A stretch of 63,920 nt of DNA from assembly GCA_002305195.1 (NCBI GenBank), contig DBQK01000009.1, positions 61,575 to 125,494 on the forward strand, in the 5' to 3' direction. This document shows positions 59,142-63,920 of this stretch, one piece after another. Source of the stretch: Patescibacteria group bacterium UBA1396. GTDB taxonomy: Bacteria; Patescibacteriota; Microgenomatia; UBA1400; UBA1396. The notes below the pieces were generated by a model. That model had not been told where the DNA came from, made no database searches, and was given only the letters and a program-made list of their open reading frames with translations. A program made the position numbers and the translations under genes. Position 1 is the stretch's first letter. Every line of letters starts with the position of its first letter.

Positions 59142-59552
59142 TTACTTGGTAGGTACTAATGAAGAGTGATGATGAAATATCTGCCACTCACCGTCAATTA
59201 ATTGCCAGCCAAATGTAAACCTTGCGTGTACAACTTCACGCTGATCGTCAGGACCAACCTCAAAATCATAAAAACCGCTGTGAAGATATGCTTTATCGCT
59301 AAGATAATGAACGGACTCAGTAACCACGACACCTTCTGGGTTTTTAGCTAAAAAATGTTCAAAATAGTTTTCTGCTCCTTGATGTCCGTGGTGGAAATCA
59401 GGTGACAAGGTTGGTAAAAAAGAGTTGTTTGGTGTGTAAAGTCTGGCGACTTCTTCTGGATTTTTAGTTAATAGAGCATCATTCCAACGTTTAAAATTCT
59501 GCTTGGCCAAGGTTAGTAGAGTTTCTTGATTGTTTCTCAATTCAGTTGCCAT
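59142..59552 (-). CDS. CaMKII-association-domain/NTF2-fold protein, candidate iota-carbonic anhydrase
   Basis: RWNDAL, FLPTLS, YFEHFL, ARFTF, WQIFHHHSS; SD AGGAGG. Confidence 0.8.
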   Translation of the reverse strand: MATELRNNQETLLTLAKQNFKRWNDALLTKNPEEVARLYTPNNSFLPTLSPDFHHGHQGAENYFEHFLAKNPEGVVVTESVHYLSDKAYLHSGFYDFEVGPDDQREVVHARFTFGWQLIDGEWQIFHHHSSLVPTK

Positions 59553-59676: not shown

Positions 59677-60783
59677 TCATGAAAGGAGGCGCTTTTGCCG
59701 CAACTGTTGTCCAAGATGGATAACGATACCAATTGCTAGGAAAATCTCACTTAGCTCCTCCCAACCTTGATATTTCCAGGGCCCGTGGTGTTCACGTAAC
59801 CACACATAGAGTGAAATCATCGCAAAGTTAAAGAACAGATAGCCGCTGGGAGTAATTAGATTGATAAAGCGATTACAATAGTCTTTTTTAGGTAGAATAT
59901 CCCTTAGACTCCATCTAACCAACCATAAAGACATACCATAAATACCGATCAGTAAGTAAGCCAGATAAACATATGGCCAAACAATATCTGAGTTATGAAT
60001 ATTAACCTCTGATTGTCGATTAATAATGGCAATTGATTCAGGAGTTTCAAAACCGATTATTCGCTGTCCCCAAGAAATTTCTTCTGCTCCAACAAGCATC
60101 AGCGCTGCCCCAGCCAGTATAAATAATCCCTGAAATACTCGTTGAAGCCAGAGGGATTTTGCCCAGTATTTTGGTTGTCGGCTTAACAGAATGGCCAATA
60201 TGGCAGCCACAAAATAGCTAATGGCAGTCAGATTTTCTACTAAACCATCTTCACTTGTGTAATTTTTGTAAAGTTCTGGTTCAATGTAGTAAGTCATAAG
60301 AGCAGCGAACATAATCGCCAGACAGCTATAAAAATACACAACGGGAGCCTGTCTTTTTAGCCAAGCAAAGTCCACATGAATAAATCCAAATAGAGCGACT
60401 ATTATTGCCAACGGGAAAATACCCAAATAGTGAAAACCAAAATTAGTGAAAAAATAGTTAGGGTACAAAGGACCATATTCTTCAAATAAAAACAAGAAGG
60501 CTGGTAAGATGCCAAGGACAGGGACGATAAACCCCAGATTAATTTTGGCAAATGATTCCGAGAGTGACTGTTTAAATTTCAACCTTATAATTAAATGTAT
60601 TGCACCAATAATTGTAGCTAGGCAAAGAGGAGAAATACCTAGGTTATTTTTAACAGCTCCAAAATAAATGAGAACATCAATTAAGCCAATCAGTAGTACT
60701 CCAAGGTAAGAAAATTTTAAAAATAGTGGCCAAATAATTTGCCGTGACCACACTTTTTTCAAAGAAAATTTATCTTGTAACAT
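59677..60783 (-). CDS. Multi-pass membrane protein, last gene of the VTC operon
   Basis: SEDGLVE and EEISWGQRIIGFETPE...N.HN motifs; 2 bp from the upstream gene. Confidence 0.7.
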   Translation of the reverse strand: MLQDKFSLKKVWSRQIIWPLFLKFSYLGVLLIGLIDVLIYFGAVKNNLGISPLCLATIIGAIHLIIRLKFKQSLSESFAKINLGFIVPVLGILPAFLFLFEEYGPLYPNYFFTNFGFHYLGIFPLAIIVALFGFIHVDFAWLKRQAPVVYFYSCLAIMFAALMTYYIEPELYKNYTSEDGLVENLTAISYFVAAILAILLSRQPKYWAKSLWLQRVFQGLFILAGAALMLVGAEEISWGQRIIGFETPESIAIINRQSEVNIHNSDIVWPYVYLAYLLIGIYGMSLWLVRWSLRDILPKKDYCNRFINLITPSGYLFFNFAMISLYVWLREHHGPWKYQGWEELSEIFLAIGIVIHLGQQLRQKRLLS

Positions 60784-60785
60784 AG

Positions 60786-61478
60786 CTAAACCAACGGTTG
60801 GTACTGCAGAAGTGAAAAGCGAGCATCTTTGTATTTTGTTTGAAAAAGTTGTTGCAGTTTTTCTAAAGCATCCGTCGATTGAGGTTTAATCAAAAACATC
60901 ATAACCTGTTGTTCGTCTTGATTTAAACGAACTAGAGTAATTTTTTGACAATATGGTTGCATTTCTTCCACAACCTGATTAAGTGACCGTGGCTTTTGAA
61001 AAACTATTTCCAGATGAAGTGAGTCTCGATCAGTAAAAACTCGACTAAAAGGTTGGCGCAACACAGCTTGCCCTAAAACCAACAACAAGATAACAGCCAA
61101 AAAGATTAGTGTAATAATCGGTTGGCCGGCACCAAAACCCAAACCCAAGGCAATTGCCAAAAAAATAAAGGCCAGCTCTTCTGGATCTTTAATTGCCGAA
61201 CGGAAACGAACAATCGATAAAGCACCTACTAGTCCCAGAGACAGCGCTAGTGAAGATTGAATAATCGAGATAATTAGCATCGTGGTGACTGACATTAAAG
61301 GCAAGATTGCTGCGAGGCGTCCGCGATTAGATAGTGAGTTGCCGGTGTAGTAATACACCAAAGAAACCAAGCTACTGCTCAAAATTAAAATCAGCGCTAG
61401 TATCAAGGTTTGTTGCGGATCAAAAGATCCCGATACTTCAAAATATGAACGTAGGGTTTCCAGTTGCATAACTCGCAT
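60786..61478 (-). CDS. DUF4956 membrane protein
   Basis: SLALSLGLVGALSIVRFRSAIKDPEEL. Confidence 0.88.
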   Translation of the reverse strand: MRVMQLETLRSYFEVSGSFDPQQTLILALILILSSSLVSLVYYYTGNSLSNRGRLAAILPLMSVTTMLIISIIQSSLALSLGLVGALSIVRFRSAIKDPEELAFIFLAIALGLGFGAGQPIITLIFLAVILLLVLGQAVLRQPFSRVFTDRDSLHLEIVFQKPRSLNQVVEEMQPYCQKITLVRLNQDEQQVMMFLIKPQSTDALEKLQQLFQTKYKDARFSLLQYQPLV

Positions 61479-61503
61479 CAGTATAGCATTTGTTTTGTTG
61501 TGG

Positions 61504-63144
61504 CTAAGGGATATTGTGACTATTTTTTATAAACTCTTGAGTGTGATCTTGGAAAGCAGCAGTGCGAGTCCGCAAGAAATCTTTTAACAATTCCACTTGA
61601 CCTTCCCATTCTGTTAAAGAATCGACACTGTCTACACCATCTTGAGCCGCTTCTTTACCCCACCTTTCAATGTGACGGGACATCTCCGGACGAATTTCGG
61701 CGGCTAGAGCCTCAGCAGTTTGGACCAGATTACGCTGTGATAATACATTTGCTGTTAACTCATTTAATCGTGCTTGCCAGTGTTGTTGGAAAGTTTGGTT
61801 AAAGAACATATTACGAAATGGAAAAGCGTGGTCTTCAAAGTTGGTATAAGGGTTGTTGTTTGCCACCTTAATCATCTTTTCTGTACTATCACGACCAGCA
61901 CCAAAACCAACATCGACATCAAAAAGAAGCCAGCGAAACCGGCCGTCTAATTCTGGCTGAAGTTGCGATTCAACCGGCTGATTTGTTGGGCTACGATAGC
62001 GCCAGGCTTTAGTATTGTTATATGGCCAGTCGGCATTGGCAAAAAAGAACTCAAAGAGAAAGTAATCGATTAAGTTGTTAGTATCGACTAGACGATCTAA
62101 GTGATTGAAATCTACACAGTCACGACACCTGCGAATATCAGATAAAAGTTGATTATAAAGATCGGCATCTGCCTGAGACTTTTTGGAATCTGAGATAGCT
62201 TGACCGCGTTTTTCGGCATTATTTAACGGTACTTCTACAATCGACAACAATTCAGGATCAACTTGATATTTTTCCGAGAAATAAGTTTCGTCAAATCTTT
62301 CACGTAAATAATATAACCCCCAATACTGGCCGTTAAGATAAAGAACAACTGGTCTAGCTGATTGTGTATCCAAATTAGAGTCGCTTTGCTGAACTAGCTC
62401 ACTCGCCAAACGATCCCTCATAAAAGTATGTGCCATATCACTACTGCTGTTGCGTAGGACGAATGAAGAATGCTGACGATTACCAGCTTCACCAAATAAT
62501 GGGTAAGTAAGTTTTACTTCCCTACCTTGCTCATCCCGCACATAAATGCGGAAGGCTTTCTGTGGCATTCCACGCATTGCATTGCCGTGTAATCTAAGTC
62601 CAATTAGACGTTCAAAACCCAACTTTTGATCTGGTTCATACCAGCGCATCCAAGCCGACCTTTCCCAATCAGATCCAGTTTGACGATAGTTATTGTGATT
62701 ACCCTCAACATAAATACCGATCTCATCATCCCAGAGTGATTCTGGAGGCAAATTGATTGACACAATCGGCATATTGTGTTTGGCGTTAATGAAAAAATCG
62801 TGAGACTGAATATTTGTTTGTAAGTTATCGTCAATAAACACAGCTGTTTGTAAAATTGCACTTTGAGAGACATCGAATGGCTGAGTATATATGGGAGAAT
62901 TGTTGGTCGGAATTGTACCGTCGAGGGTGTAATGAATTTGACCTCTTAGCGGTGAACTCAAACTTACCTTGACAGGTTGGTAAAAGAAATTTTCACTAGG
63001 GGTGACAGAGATTGGCCGATTAAGAATAGATCGTAACAACCAGTTTGGTCGCCAAATTACCATTCCAAAAACAAAAAGAGTTGCCATTAACAATCCTGCC
63101 AACCAAAACTTCAACCTGGGAGTTTTGACTTGGTAAAGGATCAT
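61504..63144 (-). CDS. CotH-family secreted kinase with Fn3/chitobiase-like repeat
   Basis: N-terminal TM; HYTLDGTIP; LRLHGN..R..PQK; NGQYWGLY; DWPYNN; WLLFDVD. Confidence 0.88.
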   Translation of the reverse strand: MILYQVKTPRLKFWLAGLLMATLFVFGMVIWRPNWLLRSILNRPISVTPSENFFYQPVKVSLSSPLRGQIHYTLDGTIPTNNSPIYTQPFDVSQSAILQTAVFIDDNLQTNIQSHDFFINAKHNMPIVSINLPPESLWDDEIGIYVEGNHNNYRQTGSDWERSAWMRWYEPDQKLGFERLIGLRLHGNAMRGMPQKAFRIYVRDEQGREVKLTYPLFGEAGNRQHSSFVLRNSSSDMAHTFMRDRLASELVQQSDSNLDTQSARPVVLYLNGQYWGLYYLRERFDETYFSEKYQVDPELLSIVEVPLNNAEKRGQAISDSKKSQADADLYNQLLSDIRRCRDCVDFNHLDRLVDTNNLIDYFLFEFFFANADWPYNNTKAWRYRSPTNQPVESQLQPELDGRFRWLLFDVDVGFGAGRDSTEKMIKVANNNPYTNFEDHAFPFRNMFFNQTFQQHWQARLNELTANVLSQRNLVQTAEALAAEIRPEMSRHIERWGKEAAQDGVDSVDSLTEWEGQVELLKDFLRTRTAAFQDHTQEFIKNSHNIP

Positions 63145-63151
63145 AGTGTTA

Positions 63152-63835
63152 TTAGTATACGTTGTTGGGAAAACACTGCTGCATGCCCATCACAAATTTT
63201 GATGATCTGCTAATCTGAAGTGGAATTTTTTGAGAAATTTTACCTAAATAAAGATCCTGTTCTATAGCGTATTTCGCTTCAAGAATGGTAAATGGTAGTT
63301 GATGAGTGTCATAGTTTTGTTGCCAACTATCAATAGTGGCAAATTTTAAGTCTGAATCAATAGTAAGGCGATAAGGAACTTGATTGGAGATATAGTATCG
63401 TCGTTGATAATGATTCACTATAGCTGGTAAAAGTACTTTGCTTTCAGGCAGGTGCGATTCAAGTTGCTCTTGAACTAGGCTGGTTAGATTTGATAATGTT
63501 AATGACGTAATTTTAATGTTAAATGGGTAGATTATTTTTTTCAAAACTTCACCTAGTCTTTGTTTGATCTCAATTTGAAAATTATCTAGCTGGCCATGAT
63601 GTTCATACCAACGAACTCTAATCTTTATCCTTCGTTGATGGCCAAGTAAATTCTGTTGGAAATATTCTTTTGTTGGTGTATCAAAATACAGCGACCATAC
63701 CTCTCTTGGATAAAAAACTGGGCTAAACATATTTGATTGAAGCAAAATTGATTTCTCGATTTGCCAGGGTGAAGCAAGATTACTGAGATACTTTCTCTCA
63801 TATCTATAAGCCGTTTGTGGTGGGTTTAAGATCAT
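63152..63835 (-). CDS. VTC-domain (CYTH/TTM) polyphosphate polymerase-like protein
   Basis: RYERKY, SLYFDT, KIRVRWY, EIK, RLTID, LEAKY, SKF. Confidence 0.9.
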   Translation of the reverse strand: MILNPPQTAYRYERKYLSNLASPWQIEKSILLQSNMFSPVFYPREVWSLYFDTPTKEYFQQNLLGHQRRIKIRVRWYEHHGQLDNFQIEIKQRLGEVLKKIIYPFNIKITSLTLSNLTSLVQEQLESHLPESKVLLPAIVNHYQRRYYISNQVPYRLTIDSDLKFATIDSWQQNYDTHQLPFTILEAKYAIEQDLYLGKISQKIPLQISRSSKFVMGMQQCFPNNVY

Positions 63836-63920
63836 TTCCTGTTTAGTATACGCATCCTATTGATCAAGCGCACTCTAATTTTAAAACTTTTTATTTTAAA
63901 GACATCTTGTTTGCTATACT

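What the first reader, a model, noticed from the sequence alone, without database searches (positions are those of the whole stretch)
59677..63835. VTC - CotH kinase - DUF4956 - membrane protein operon: possible polyphosphate synthesis, export and surface phosphorylation system
Seen: four tightly linked genes (gaps 7, 25 and 2 bp) encode a cytoplasmic VTC/TTM catalytic domain, an exported CotH kinase on a TM anchor, DUF4956 and a membrane protein with the EEISWGQR motif. Known: yeast Vtc4 polymerises polyP while translocating it through a membrane channel, and CotH kinases phosphorylate extracellular proteins. Inference: VTC plus DUF4956 rebuild a Vtc4-like synthase-channel that supplies polyP or phosphoryl donor outside the cell, where ATP is scarce, for CotH. 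The triad recurs in bacteria as I recall, but I know of no demonstrated mechanism.
Basis: partly seen in the sequence, partly recalled or inferred. Interest (0 to 1): 0.75.

Follow-up and report, generated by a model that had tools for sequence, protein, structure and literature searches.

The report
VTC–CotH–DUF4956 envelope phosphate module
An ultrasmall (CPR) bacterium carries a widespread but never-tested three-gene set: a yeast-type polyphosphate-making enzyme inside the cell, a small membrane protein, and a kinase anchored outside. It may carry phosphate chemistry across the membrane to the cell surface; the fourth gene in the row is an unrelated neighbour.

Summary
Four minus-strand ORFs with gaps of 7, 25 and 2 bp encode VTC (PF09359), a membrane-anchored CotH (PF08757), DUF4956 (PF16316) and a 368-aa polytopic protein carrying EEISWGQR.

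VTC, CotH and DUF4956 form a real, widely conserved module. Of 51 DUF4956 loci with full flanks, from many phyla, 43 carry both VTC and CotH on the same strand, in shuffled order. VTC keeps all nine residues essential in yeast Vtc4, and CotH keeps both catalytic aspartates.

DUF4956 is not a Vtc1-type channel. It is a distant MgtC-like membrane protein with a cytoplasmic ACT/PII-like domain. Natural fusions indicate that its N-terminus lies outside the cell and its C-terminus inside.

Exported pyrophosphatases and phosphoesterases recur beside the module, and the loci sit among surface-glycan genes. Both fit phosphate chemistry outside the membrane.

Gene 4 is a passenger. It is absent from all 80 related loci and from all 14 other CPR genomes that have the triad.

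The triad is already in print as untested accessory genes of Gram-positive pel loci, so this is a new member of a known, uncharacterised kind. The polyphosphate-export-to-CotH mechanism remains plausible but unproven.

The parts
63152..63835 (-). VTC-domain protein (227 aa): cytoplasmic triphosphate-tunnel enzyme of the Vtc4 polyphosphate-polymerase type
   Evidence: PF09359 at E=4e-20. A profile of 30 bacterial homologues hits yeast Vtc4 3g3q at E=1e-11. R11/K15/R73/R75/K91/Y143/R145/E186/S212/K213 align to Vtc4 R196/K200/R264/R266/K281/Y359/R361/E426/S457/K458 and are invariant. No TM segment.
61504..63144 (-). CotH-family kinase (546 aa) on an N-terminal membrane anchor
   Evidence: PF08757 at E=3e-45. 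A profile hits B. cereus CotH 5jd9 at E=2e-42. D372 and D409 align with the catalytic and metal-binding Asp (B. subtilis D228 and D251).
63052..63108 (-). CotH N-terminal transmembrane anchor (aa 13-31, FWLAGLLMATLFVFGMVIW)
   Evidence: Hydropathy peak of 2.14. 62 of 72 CotH homologues in related loci have an N-terminal hydrophobic segment.
62806..62991 (-). CHB_HEX_C_1 / Fn3_assoc beta-sandwich module of CotH (aa 52-113), a type found in extracellular carbohydrate-active proteins
   Evidence: PF13290 at E=6e-12 and PF13287 at E=9e-11. A beta-hexosaminidase 6q63 segment matches.
61558..62598 (-). CotH kinase domain (aa 183-529)
   Evidence: Pfam envelope and alignment to 5jd9.
60786..61478 (-). 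DUF4956 membrane protein (230 aa): MgtC-like polytopic domain plus a C-terminal ACT/PII-like domain. It is the obligate partner of VTC.
   Evidence: PF16316 at E=2e-16. The core S76-G116, including R91-F-R-x-A-I-K-x-P-E-E-L, is invariant. AF2 pLDDT 84.7. Foldseek matches only the C-terminal domain (SbtB, ACT, MgtC 2lqj) and nothing from Vtc1/Vtc4. 70 of 110 relatives give sub-threshold MgtC hits.
59677..60783 (-). Gene 4: 368-aa polytopic membrane protein of a large unannotated family (EEISWGQR motif). Probably co-transcribed, but not a conserved member of the module.
   Evidence: No Pfam or NCBIfam hit. The family has 7,651 clusters at 50% identity. Homologues in four other CPR genomes are unlinked to the triad. 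It is absent from 80 of 80 DUF4956 loci and from 14 of 14 other CPR genomes with the triad. AF2 pLDDT 93.7 with no PDB fold match.

Best explanation
The locus is a CPR copy of the widespread VTC-CotH-DUF4956 module, followed by an unrelated membrane-protein gene. The proposed mechanism has three steps. First, the cytoplasmic VTC enzyme uses ATP to build a phosphate chain (polyP) at the inner face of the membrane. Second, its obligate partner DUF4956 docks VTC and passes the chain, or its phosphoryl groups, to the outer face. DUF4956 is modelled here as a MgtC-like protein with five TM helices, N-terminus outside and C-terminus inside. It would have an invariant basic cytoplasmic loop (RFRxAIKxPEEL) and a cytoplasmic ACT/PII-like domain. 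Third, the membrane-anchored CotH kinase outside uses this supply to phosphorylate a surface polymer. Given the neighbourhoods, that polymer is more likely a glycan than a protein.

Shown here: the domain identities; the intact catalytic residues of VTC and CotH; strict VTC-DUF4956 co-occurrence and adjacency; the existence of DUF4956-VTC and signal-peptide-lectin-DUF4956 fusions; and recurrent exported pyrophosphatase and phosphoesterase neighbours.

Inferred: polymerase activity, translocation by DUF4956, the extracytoplasmic side for CotH, the donor used by CotH, and its substrate.
For: Linkage. Of 51 DUF4956 loci with at least 5 kb on both sides, 43 have both VTC and CotH within 5 kb on the same strand. 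Five have VTC only, two CotH only, and one neither. Gene orders are DCV 24, CDV 21, DVC 8 and VDC 1, while the order here is VCD. Three CotH subgroups were verified as PF08757.

CPR genomes. DUF4956 occurs in 15 of 301 genomes. All 14 others have VTC, adjacent to DUF4956 wherever the two share a contig. CotH lies in the cluster in at least 11, and own-HMM detection adds G281. In the control genomes, VTC and DUF4956 are found in the same 3 of 14.

Catalysis. All nine Vtc4 residues shown essential in yeast (bioRxiv 10.1101/2023.01.27.525886) are invariant in bacterial VTC. This includes the K458 equivalent that inactive Vtc2/3 lack. CotH keeps D372 and D409.

Topology. Signal peptide + PF06439 lectin-like domain + DUF4956 fusions put the DUF4956 N-terminus outside. 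DUF4956-VTC fusions (P0200, P0201) put its C-terminus inside. The positive-inside rule agrees.

Extracytoplasmic phosphate chemistry. Exported family-I pyrophosphatases lie directly after VTC in 5 of 80 loci. Exported calcineurin-like phosphoesterases occur in 14 of 80 loci and in one CPR locus.

Glycan context. GT2, GT4, epimerase, DegT, Wzx-like and Wzy genes flank the triad in CPR and other loci.

Own genome. No PPK1, PPK2 or Ppx-GppA was found.
Against: No bacterial VTC protein, DUF4956 protein or triad-type CotH has been assayed. DUF4956 has no fold or sequence relation to the Vtc1/Vtc4 channel helices, and its nearest relative, MgtC, is known as a regulator, not a channel. AF2 models residues 52-90 as one long helix at low confidence, so the five-TM count rests on fusions and charge, not on the model. 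DUF4956-VTC fusions are rare singletons and could be assembly errors. No kinase of the CotH fold is known to use polyP. Bacterial VTC keeps an invariant Glu (E13, RYERK) where Vtc4 has Thr, a feature of hydrolytic CYTH enzymes. In S. intermedius, single deletions of the three genes left Pel production and aggregation in place. CotH orientation in this protein is not settled by flanking charges. The genome is only 73% complete, so the absence of PPK and PPX is provisional.
Confidence: 0.35

Rival explanations
1. Intracellular polyP with a membrane regulator. VTC makes polyP that stays in the cytoplasm. DUF4956 is a MgtC-like anchor or regulator whose ACT/PII-like domain senses a metabolite and tunes VTC. 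CotH is merely co-regulated and works independently at the surface.
For: DUF4956 resembles MgtC in architecture and gives sub-threshold Pfam hits to it. MgtC is linked to ATP and phosphate homeostasis, and the S. intermedius preprint proposes that polyP stays cytoplasmic. This genome lacks PPK1 and PPK2, so VTC could be its only polyP source.
Against: This does not explain why an exported CotH is linked in about 85-90% of loci through repeated gene-order shuffling. It also does not explain why exported pyrophosphatases and phosphoesterases sit in the same operons, or why many DUF4956 proteins carry an exported lectin-like domain. No PPX was found to use stored polyP.
Confidence: 0.25
2. VTC is a hydrolytic or otherwise non-polymerising tunnel enzyme. 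Its ATP or triphosphate turnover energises or gates DUF4956, which moves something else across the membrane, such as a glycan intermediate or an ion, for the surface-glycan pathway.
For: Bacterial VTC keeps an invariant Glu in the beta-1 motif (RYERK), reminiscent of the CYTH ExExK metal site. The loci sit in glycan clusters. No SPX or Vtc1-type partner is present.
Against: All nine residues needed for polymerisation in Vtc4 are invariant, including the Lys that separates active Vtc4 from inactive Vtc2/3. Exported pyrophosphatase neighbours point to phosphoanhydride products outside.
Confidence: 0.15
3. CotH here is not a kinase in practice. It would be a surface adhesin or structural protein, as proposed for fungal CotH invasins, and its linkage to VTC/DUF4956 would reflect shared regulation only.
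For: Some triad CotH homologues lack the catalytic Asp (L034 and L064). CotH carries binding-type modules.
Against: This CotH and most relatives keep both catalytic Asp residues and the conserved N-lobe Lys. The profile match to the solved kinase is strong.
Confidence: 0.1
4. One reading: the EEISWGQR membrane protein is a functional component (an exporter or channel) of the system.
For: There is a 2-bp gap and no terminator between DUF4956 and gene 4. The same arrangement occurs in a relative with a 97%-identical gene 4 protein.
Against: Gene 4 homologues are absent from 80 of 80 DUF4956 loci and from 14 of 14 other CPR genomes with the triad. One is present in a same-order genome without the triad. 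Four homologues sit in unrelated contexts.
Confidence: 0.04

Closest known systems
CotH / 'polyphosphate polymerase' (VTC) / DUF4956 accessory genes of Gram-positive pel operons (Whitfield et al., bioRxiv 10.1101/768473; S. intermedius SIR_1592-1594, bioRxiv 10.1101/2024.04.20.589940) and the VTC/CotH genes of C. perfringens NELoc-2 (PMC2879425)
   Same: The same three Pfam families lie adjacent and co-directional. CotH is predicted secreted, VTC cytoplasmic with its catalytic residues, and DUF4956 MgtC-like with a C-terminal ACT domain. The function is untested.
   Different: There are no pel genes here (no PelG in the genome). The host is a CPR bacterium, the gene order is VTC-CotH-DUF4956, and there is no DUF4832 hydrolase. 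The 2024 preprint states that the trio was not found outside pel operons. Here it is found outside them in dozens of phyla-spanning loci.
Eukaryotic VTC complex (yeast Vtc4/Vtc3/Vtc1; PDB 3G3Q, 7YTJ, 8I6V), a polyP polymerase coupled to membrane translocation
   Same: The catalytic tunnel domain is homologous (profile E=1e-11) and all nine essential residues are conserved. The enzyme is genetically tied to a small polytopic membrane protein.
   Different: There is no SPX domain and no fused or separate Vtc1-type (DUF202) helices. The membrane partner belongs to a different, MgtC-like family with an ACT/PII-like domain. The beta-1 motif keeps a Glu. Translocation is not shown.
Bacillus CotH spore-coat Ser kinase (PDB 5JD9/5JDA)
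   Same: Same kinase fold (profile E=2e-42), with the catalytic and metal-binding Asp conserved.
   Different: Bacillus CotH has no signal or anchor, acts in the mother cell with ATP, and is not linked to VTC or DUF4956 (B. subtilis has CotH only). The protein here is membrane-anchored, with a carbohydrate-module-like domain.
MgtC/SapB/YhiD family (PF02308; MgtC C-terminal domain PDB 2LQJ)
   Same: DUF4956 shares the architecture: an N-terminal polytopic domain plus a C-terminal ACT-like domain. It gives weak sequence hits (70 of 110 relatives, best E=3e-4), and JGI names relatives 'YhiD'.
   Different: It scores below the Pfam threshold (12.4 vs 31.4 bits here). It has its own invariant motif and is strictly coupled to VTC, which MgtC is not.

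Membership tests
VTC-CotH-DUF4956 triad (accessory genes of Gram-positive pel loci) | VTC, CotH and DUF4956 genes adjacent on one strand | tested here: met
   gaps of 7 and 25 bp, and all three Pfam families score above their cut-offs.
VTC-CotH-DUF4956 triad (accessory genes of Gram-positive pel loci) | Contiguity with a pelDEA(DA)FG operon | tested here: not met
   No PelG (PF16933) anywhere in the 666-kb assembly. Downstream genes are unrelated. Upstream is unknown because the contig ends there.
Vtc4-type TTM polyphosphate polymerase (PF09359) | Pfam VTC domain above the gathering score | tested here: met
   72.7 bits against a cut-off of 23.
Vtc4-type TTM polyphosphate polymerase (PF09359) | Residues K200, R264, R266, K281, Y359, R361, E426, S457 and K458 of yeast Vtc4 | tested here: met
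   K15, R73, R75, K91, Y143, R145, E186, S212 and K213 align to them and are invariant in 30 bacterial sequences.
Vtc4-type TTM polyphosphate polymerase (PF09359) | PolyP synthesis from ATP | not testable with these tools
   Needs an enzyme assay.
Eukaryotic VTC complex (synthase-translocase) | SPX regulatory domain and Vtc1-type (DUF202) three-helix membrane domain | tested here: not met
   VTC is 227 aa with no other domain and no TM. The DUF4956 model matches no VTC-complex chain. None of the 110 DUF4956 relatives was among the listed top families for DUF202.
Eukaryotic VTC complex (synthase-translocase) | Physical coupling of the catalytic domain to a membrane conduit | tested here: inconclusive
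   Strict co-occurrence and adjacency and rare DUF4956-VTC fusions. No complex prediction or experiment was possible.
CotH kinase (PF08757) | Pfam CotH domain and kinase fold | tested here: met
   155.8 bits. The profile hits 5jd9 at E=2e-42.
CotH kinase (PF08757) | Catalytic Asp (B. subtilis D228) and metal-binding Asp (D251) | tested here: met
   D372 and D409. The mutant data are cited from bioRxiv 10.1101/469122.
CotH kinase (PF08757) | Signal-less cytoplasmic (mother-cell) protein acting on spore-coat proteins, as in Bacillus | tested here: not met
   N-terminal TM anchor. The carbohydrate-type module and the triad context are both absent from B. subtilis.
MgtC/SapB/YhiD (PF02308) | Pfam MgtC domain above the gathering score | tested here: not met
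   12.4 bits against 31.4 (E=0.2) for this protein. 70 of 110 relatives give sub-threshold hits, best E=3e-4.
MgtC/SapB/YhiD (PF02308) | Polytopic N-terminal domain followed by an ACT-like C-terminal domain | tested here: met
   AF2 model. Foldseek hits to ACT, PII-like and the MgtC C-terminal domain 2lqj, with TM-score 0.5-0.65 on the target.

The most novel reading that the evidence does not exclude
Prokaryotes have a PPK-independent machine in which a Vtc4-type polymerase and a MgtC-like membrane protein make polyphosphate and hand it across the cytoplasmic membrane. Outside, a CotH-fold enzyme uses it instead of ATP to phosphorylate surface glycans or proteins. Exported pyrophosphatases and phosphoesterases would clear the by-products. 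In this CPR bacterium no PPK1, PPK2 or PPX was found, and it probably has a single membrane. It would therefore carry the minimal form of that machine.
Probability: 0.15. Interest if true: 0.85.

Novelty: new member of a known kind. Interest (0 to 1): 0.5.

Why it matters
How bacteria power phosphorylation outside the cytoplasm, where there is no ATP, is an open question. So is the function of bacterial VTC-domain and DUF4956 proteins, which number in the thousands. If the module exports polyP as a phosphoryl donor, three things would follow. It would be a new route of polyP synthesis in prokaryotes. It would be a new kind of trans-membrane energy and phosphate relay. It would also give a rationale for exported CotH kinases next to surface-glycan genes.

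This CPR copy has no outer membrane to cross, and no PPK or PPX was detected. That makes it a clean minimal case, but it adds an instance rather than a new principle. This analysis adds several testable details:
- an N-out/C-in topology for DUF4956, inferred from natural fusions;
- an invariant cytoplasmic basic loop in DUF4956;
- recurrent exported pyrophosphatase and phosphoesterase neighbours;
- exclusion of gene 4 from the module.

Tried and rejected
- Single-sequence PDB searches with VTC and CotH found nothing useful. Profiles were needed.
- DUF4956 as a Vtc1 homologue is rejected. Foldseek matches only the C-terminal domain, and DUF202 is not among the families that the 110 relatives hit.
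- Gene 4 as a module component is rejected by context and phyletic pattern. Its confident model has no PDB analogue, so no function could be assigned.
- The upstream context could not be recovered. The contig ends 85 bp before VTC, and another sample's contig ends at the same base. Contigs from a related strain (gene 4 protein 97% identical) begin 58 bp before CotH with a divergent leader.
- Joining contig C6, which starts inside a gene-4 paralogue, to this end is not supported: there is no DNA similarity.
- The promoter and terminator scan was uninformative within the operon.
- A lead from earlier scan notes says the VTC/DUF4956 pair joins HlyD/TolC ducts in diderm bacteria. I saw no such genes among ten sampled neighbours from four loci. 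My loci were chosen for likeness to the CPR protein, so this neither confirms nor refutes the lead.
- A literature search found no assay of any bacterial VTC or DUF4956 protein.

Full report
OBSERVATION

- VTC, 63835..63152 (227 aa)
- CotH, 63144..61504 (546 aa)
- DUF4956, 61478..60786 (230 aa)
- a 368-aa membrane protein, 60783..59677

The gaps are 7, 25 and 2 bp. Pfam gives VTC PF09359 (E=4e-20), CotH PF08757 (E=3e-45) with a CHB_HEX_C_1/Fn3_assoc module at aa 52-113, and DUF4956 PF16316 (E=2e-16). It gives nothing for gene 4, and NCBIfam adds nothing decisive.

Hydropathy finds no TM segment in VTC, one N-terminal TM in CotH (aa 13-31), several in DUF4956 and at least eight in gene 4. Gene 4 carries E234-E235-I-S-W-G-Q-R241.

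The window is the last 63.9 kb of a 125-kb contig of a 666-kb, 73%-complete genome. Earlier notes of this scan call the organism CPR/Patescibacteria. The contig stops 85 bp upstream of VTC, so the upstream neighbours are unknown. Another sample's contig ends at the same base.

No terminator-like site lies in any of the gaps between the four genes or after gene 4; the two such sites found lie inside the CotH gene. The next gene, a SnoaL/CaMKII_AD-like protein at 59552..59142, has its own promoter-like site and a strong Shine-Dalgarno sequence.

THE TRIAD IS A CONSERVED MODULE; GENE 4 IS NOT PART OF IT

An alignment of DUF4956 relatives retrieved 80 loci from species-representative genomes. They come from Bacteroidota, Chloroflexota, Planctomycetota, Verrucomicrobiota, Gemmatimonadota, SAR11/Rickettsiales, other Proteobacteria and one Woesearchaeota MAG.

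I built profiles iteratively from the window proteins. Of 51 loci with at least 5 kb on both sides of DUF4956:
- 43 have both VTC and CotH within 5 kb on the same strand
- 5 have VTC only
- 2 have CotH only
- 1 has neither

The gene order is shuffled: DCV 24, CDV 21, DVC 8 and VDC 1, while the order here is VCD. That argues for selection on the linkage rather than simple inheritance of one operon. Representatives of three CotH sub-clusters are genuine PF08757 proteins.

Within Patescibacteria, DUF4956 is patchy: 15 of 301 genomes, and none of three same-order genomes. All 14 other carriers have VTC, next to DUF4956 wherever the two share a contig. CotH lies in the same cluster in at least 11, and my own profile also finds a divergent CotH in G281.

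In the 14 control genomes, VTC and DUF4956 are found in the same three: B. thetaiotaomicron, C. glutamicum and M. acetivorans. CotH is found in those three plus B. subtilis.

Gene 4 behaves differently:
- Its homologues at 41-46% identity in four other CPR genomes sit in unrelated contexts.
- None of the 80 loci contains one.
- None of the 14 other CPR genomes with the triad has one, while a same-order genome without the triad does.

Gene 4 belongs to a very large unannotated family of 7,651 clusters at 50% identity. The invariant positions are E178, E183, E235-I-S-W-G-Q240, Q257, E259, H263 and N264; D179, E234, R241, N255, E343 and E346 are conserved in at least 90% of sequences. Its AlphaFold model is confident (pLDDT 93.7) but has no PDB fold match (best E=0.31). 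I treat it as a co-transcribed passenger.

WHAT THE THREE PROTEINS ARE

VTC. A profile of 30 bacterial homologues hits the yeast Vtc4 catalytic domain (3g3q, E=1e-11). The alignment maps window residues onto Vtc4 as follows:

| Window VTC | Yeast Vtc4 |
|---|---|
| R11 | R196 |
| K15 | K200 |
| R73 | R264 |
| R75 | R266 |
| K91 | K281 |
| K100 | K294 |
| Y143 | Y359 |
| R145 | R361 |
| R156 | R373 |
| E186 | E426 |
| K188 | K428 |
| S212 | S457 |
| K213 | K458 |

All of these are invariant in the bacterial alignment. The set includes the nine residues whose mutation lowers polyP in yeast. It also includes K458, the position that separates active Vtc4 from inactive Vtc2/3 (bioRxiv 10.1101/2023.01.27.525886; PMC9911596). 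One difference stands out. The bacterial beta-1 motif is R-Y-E-R-K with an invariant Glu where Vtc4 has Thr. This recalls the ExExK metal site of hydrolytic CYTH enzymes (my own knowledge).

CotH. A profile hits B. cereus CotH (5jd9, E=2e-42). D372 (N-A-D) and D409 (F-D-V-D) align with the Asp residues equivalent to B. subtilis D228 and D251. Substituting either of those inactivates the kinase (bioRxiv 10.1101/469122). Of 72 full-length CotH homologues in the loci, 62 have an N-terminal hydrophobic segment. A streptococcal homologue is reported in a secretome. The extracytoplasmic location of this CotH is therefore inferred, not shown.

DUF4956. The family is huge, with more than 7,600 hits. 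It has an invariant core, S76-G116, that includes R91-F-R-x-A-I-K-x-P-E-E-L. The AlphaFold model (pLDDT 84.7, dropping to 62-67 over residues 71-100) has helices at 21-45, 52-90, 99-116 and 120-141. A beta-alpha-beta-beta-alpha-beta domain follows at 154-225.

Foldseek against the PDB matches only that C-terminal domain. The hits are PII-like SbtB, ACT domains and the MgtC C-terminal domain 2lqj, and no VTC-complex chain appears. Seventy of 110 relatives give sub-threshold hits to Pfam MgtC. JGI names relatives 'YhiD'. DUF4956 is thus a distant MgtC-like protein, not a Vtc1-type channel subunit.

TOPOLOGY AND COUPLING FROM NATURAL FUSIONS

I searched with a concatenated VTC+DUF4956 query, so that only longer proteins were eligible. 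Two kinds of fusion turned up.

(i) DUF4956-VTC fusions: P0200 (466 aa), P0201 (463 aa) and the partial P0209. P0201 sits in a triad context, with CotH immediately upstream of the fused gene; for P0200 the flanking genes show no recorded CotH.

(ii) A large, mainly Chloroflexota subfamily with a cleavable-looking signal peptide, a PF06439 concanavalin-like domain, a Pro/Ala linker and then DUF4956.

The first kind ties the C-terminal domain of DUF4956 to the ATP-using VTC, so it lies in the cytoplasm. The second kind puts the N-terminus of the DUF4956 module outside. Together they require an odd number of TM passes. A five-TM, N-out/C-in arrangement also fits the positive-inside rule (R52/R54; R91/R93/K97; R142/R147). 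It places the invariant basic loop on the cytoplasmic face, where VTC would dock. The fusions are rare singletons, and AF2 does not resolve the 71-100 region, so this topology is an inference to be tested.

EVIDENCE FOR PHOSPHATE CHEMISTRY OUTSIDE THE MEMBRANE

Clustering of all neighbouring ORFs found no universal fourth gene, but it did find two recurrent ones.

- A roughly 300-aa calcineurin-like phosphoesterase occurs in 14 of 80 loci across six phyla, and between VTC and CotH in a same-class CPR genome. Most of the twelve members inspected carry an N-terminal signal peptide or lipobox; the planctomycete members do not.
- A family-I inorganic pyrophosphatase lies directly downstream of VTC in 5 loci (SAR11, Rickettsiales, Flavobacteriia). 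Every copy has a signal peptide or lipobox.

An exported pyrophosphatase makes sense only if phosphoanhydrides occur outside the cytoplasm. This is the best new circumstantial support for export.

The wider context is surface-glycan biosynthesis. GT2, GT4, epimerase/dehydratase, DegT aminotransferase, Wzx-like flippase, Wzy, sulfotransferase and initiating sugar transferase genes flank the triad in most of the ten CPR loci examined and in other phyla. With the carbohydrate-type modules on CotH and the lectin-like domain on some DUF4956 proteins, this makes a glycan the more likely CotH substrate. This genome shows no PPK1, PPK2, Ppx-GppA or PelG. The assembly is only 73% complete, which limits that conclusion.

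COMPARISON WITH WHAT IS KNOWN

The trio is in print as accessory genes (cotH, 'polyphosphate polymerase', DUF4956, often with DUF4832) downstream of Gram-positive pel operons (bioRxiv 10.1101/768473). A VTC/'tubulin'/CotH set is also reported in C. perfringens NELoc-2 (PMC2879425).

The S. intermedius preprint (10.1101/2024.04.20.589940) describes the same three proteins. It notes the MgtC/ACT likeness and suggests that polyP stays cytoplasmic. It reports that the trio was not found outside pel operons. It also shows that single deletions do not abolish Pel production or aggregation, with only a small effect for the DUF4956 mutant.

My data contradict the 'only in pel operons' statement. Beyond that, I found no functional test of any bacterial member.

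Earlier notes of this scan report the same module in hundreds of genomes. They also record a later check that rated the export reading as unlikely for lack of any experiment. I treat those notes as leads only. Their HlyD/TolC association was not seen among the ten neighbours I sampled. Their lipoprotein-phosphoesterase association was seen independently here.

VERDICT

However, gene 4 is not a member, and DUF4956 is MgtC-like rather than Vtc1-like. PolyP export and polyP use by CotH are unproven.

This is a new (CPR) member of a known but uncharacterised kind. I put the stated mechanism at about 0.35 and its strongest form, polyP as the donor for an ATP-independent surface kinase, at about 0.15.

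Noticed in passing
window 59677-60783 (-); also genome contig C6:16-429 (+): Gene 4 belongs to a very large unannotated membrane-protein family (7,651 clusters at 50% identity, no Pfam). Invariant positions are E178, E183, E235-I-S-W-G-Q240, Q257, E259, H263 and N264, with D179, E234, R241, N255, E343 and E346 conserved in at least 90% of sequences. Its AlphaFold model is confident (pLDDT 93.7) but has no PDB fold match. A second, divergent paralogue is cut by the start of contig C6.
   Followed up: partly
P0202, P0213, P0241, P0242, P0278; loci L013, L014, L019, L030, L031, L035, L038, L054: A large, mostly Chloroflexota subfamily of DUF4956 proteins (about 450 aa) carries an N-terminal signal peptide. 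A PF06439 (3-keto-disaccharide hydrolase/DUF1080, concanavalin-like) domain and a Pro/Ala linker follow, ahead of the membrane module. An exported lectin-like head on DUF4956 suggests it contacts a glycan outside the cell.
   Followed up: partly
L052:14082-14708, L057:9214-9840, L061:14347-15027, L063:14093-14755, L081:14248-14910: Family-I inorganic pyrophosphatases with signal peptides or lipoboxes are encoded beside the triad on the same strand in SAR11, Rickettsiales and Flavobacteriia, directly after VTC in four of the five. Exported soluble pyrophosphatases are unusual and imply PPi or polyP outside the cytoplasm.
   Followed up: partly
14 of loci L011-L090 (e.g. L068:5879-6817, L081:14910-15800, L047:4280-5188) and CPR locus L112:6986-8056: A roughly 300-aa calcineurin-like (Metallophos) phosphoesterase, usually with a signal peptide or lipobox, recurs beside the triad across six phyla. 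In one CPR genome it sits between VTC and CotH.
   Followed up: partly
window 63836-63920; L103:1-85; L003-L005:1-58: Assemblies from different samples break at fixed points here. Two contigs end 85 bp upstream of VTC. Three contigs of a related strain (gene 4 protein 97% identical) begin 58 bp upstream of CotH, with about 33 nt that do not match this window and no VTC on the contig. This suggests strain-level variation or a hard-to-assemble element at the 5' edge of the module.
   Followed up: partly
window 63797-63805 (VTC aa 11-15, RYERK); alignment A2: All 30 bacterial VTC proteins keep an invariant Glu in the beta-1 motif (R-x-E-x-K) where yeast Vtc4 has Thr (R196-Q-T-T-K200). This is a CYTH-like feature that might mean a second metal site or different chemistry.
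   Followed up: no
P0200 (L105:6001-7401), P0201 (L104:6001-7392), P0209: Rare single-ORF DUF4956-VTC fusions exist. P0201 lies directly after CotH. They are singletons from what look like long-read assemblies, so they need confirmation.
   Followed up: partly
window 59142-59552 (-): The next gene is a 136-aa SnoaL/CaMKII_AD-like protein ending WQIFHHHSS. It has its own promoter-like site (59619-59591) and a strong Shine-Dalgarno sequence, so it appears to be a separate transcription unit from the four genes. Another first-stage note proposes an iota-carbonic anhydrase here.
   Followed up: no
literature: bioRxiv 10.1101/2024.04.20.589940: The preprint states that the SIR_1592-1594 combination was not found outside pel operons. 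The 80 loci and 15 CPR genomes examined here show that the trio is common without pel genes.
   Followed up: yes
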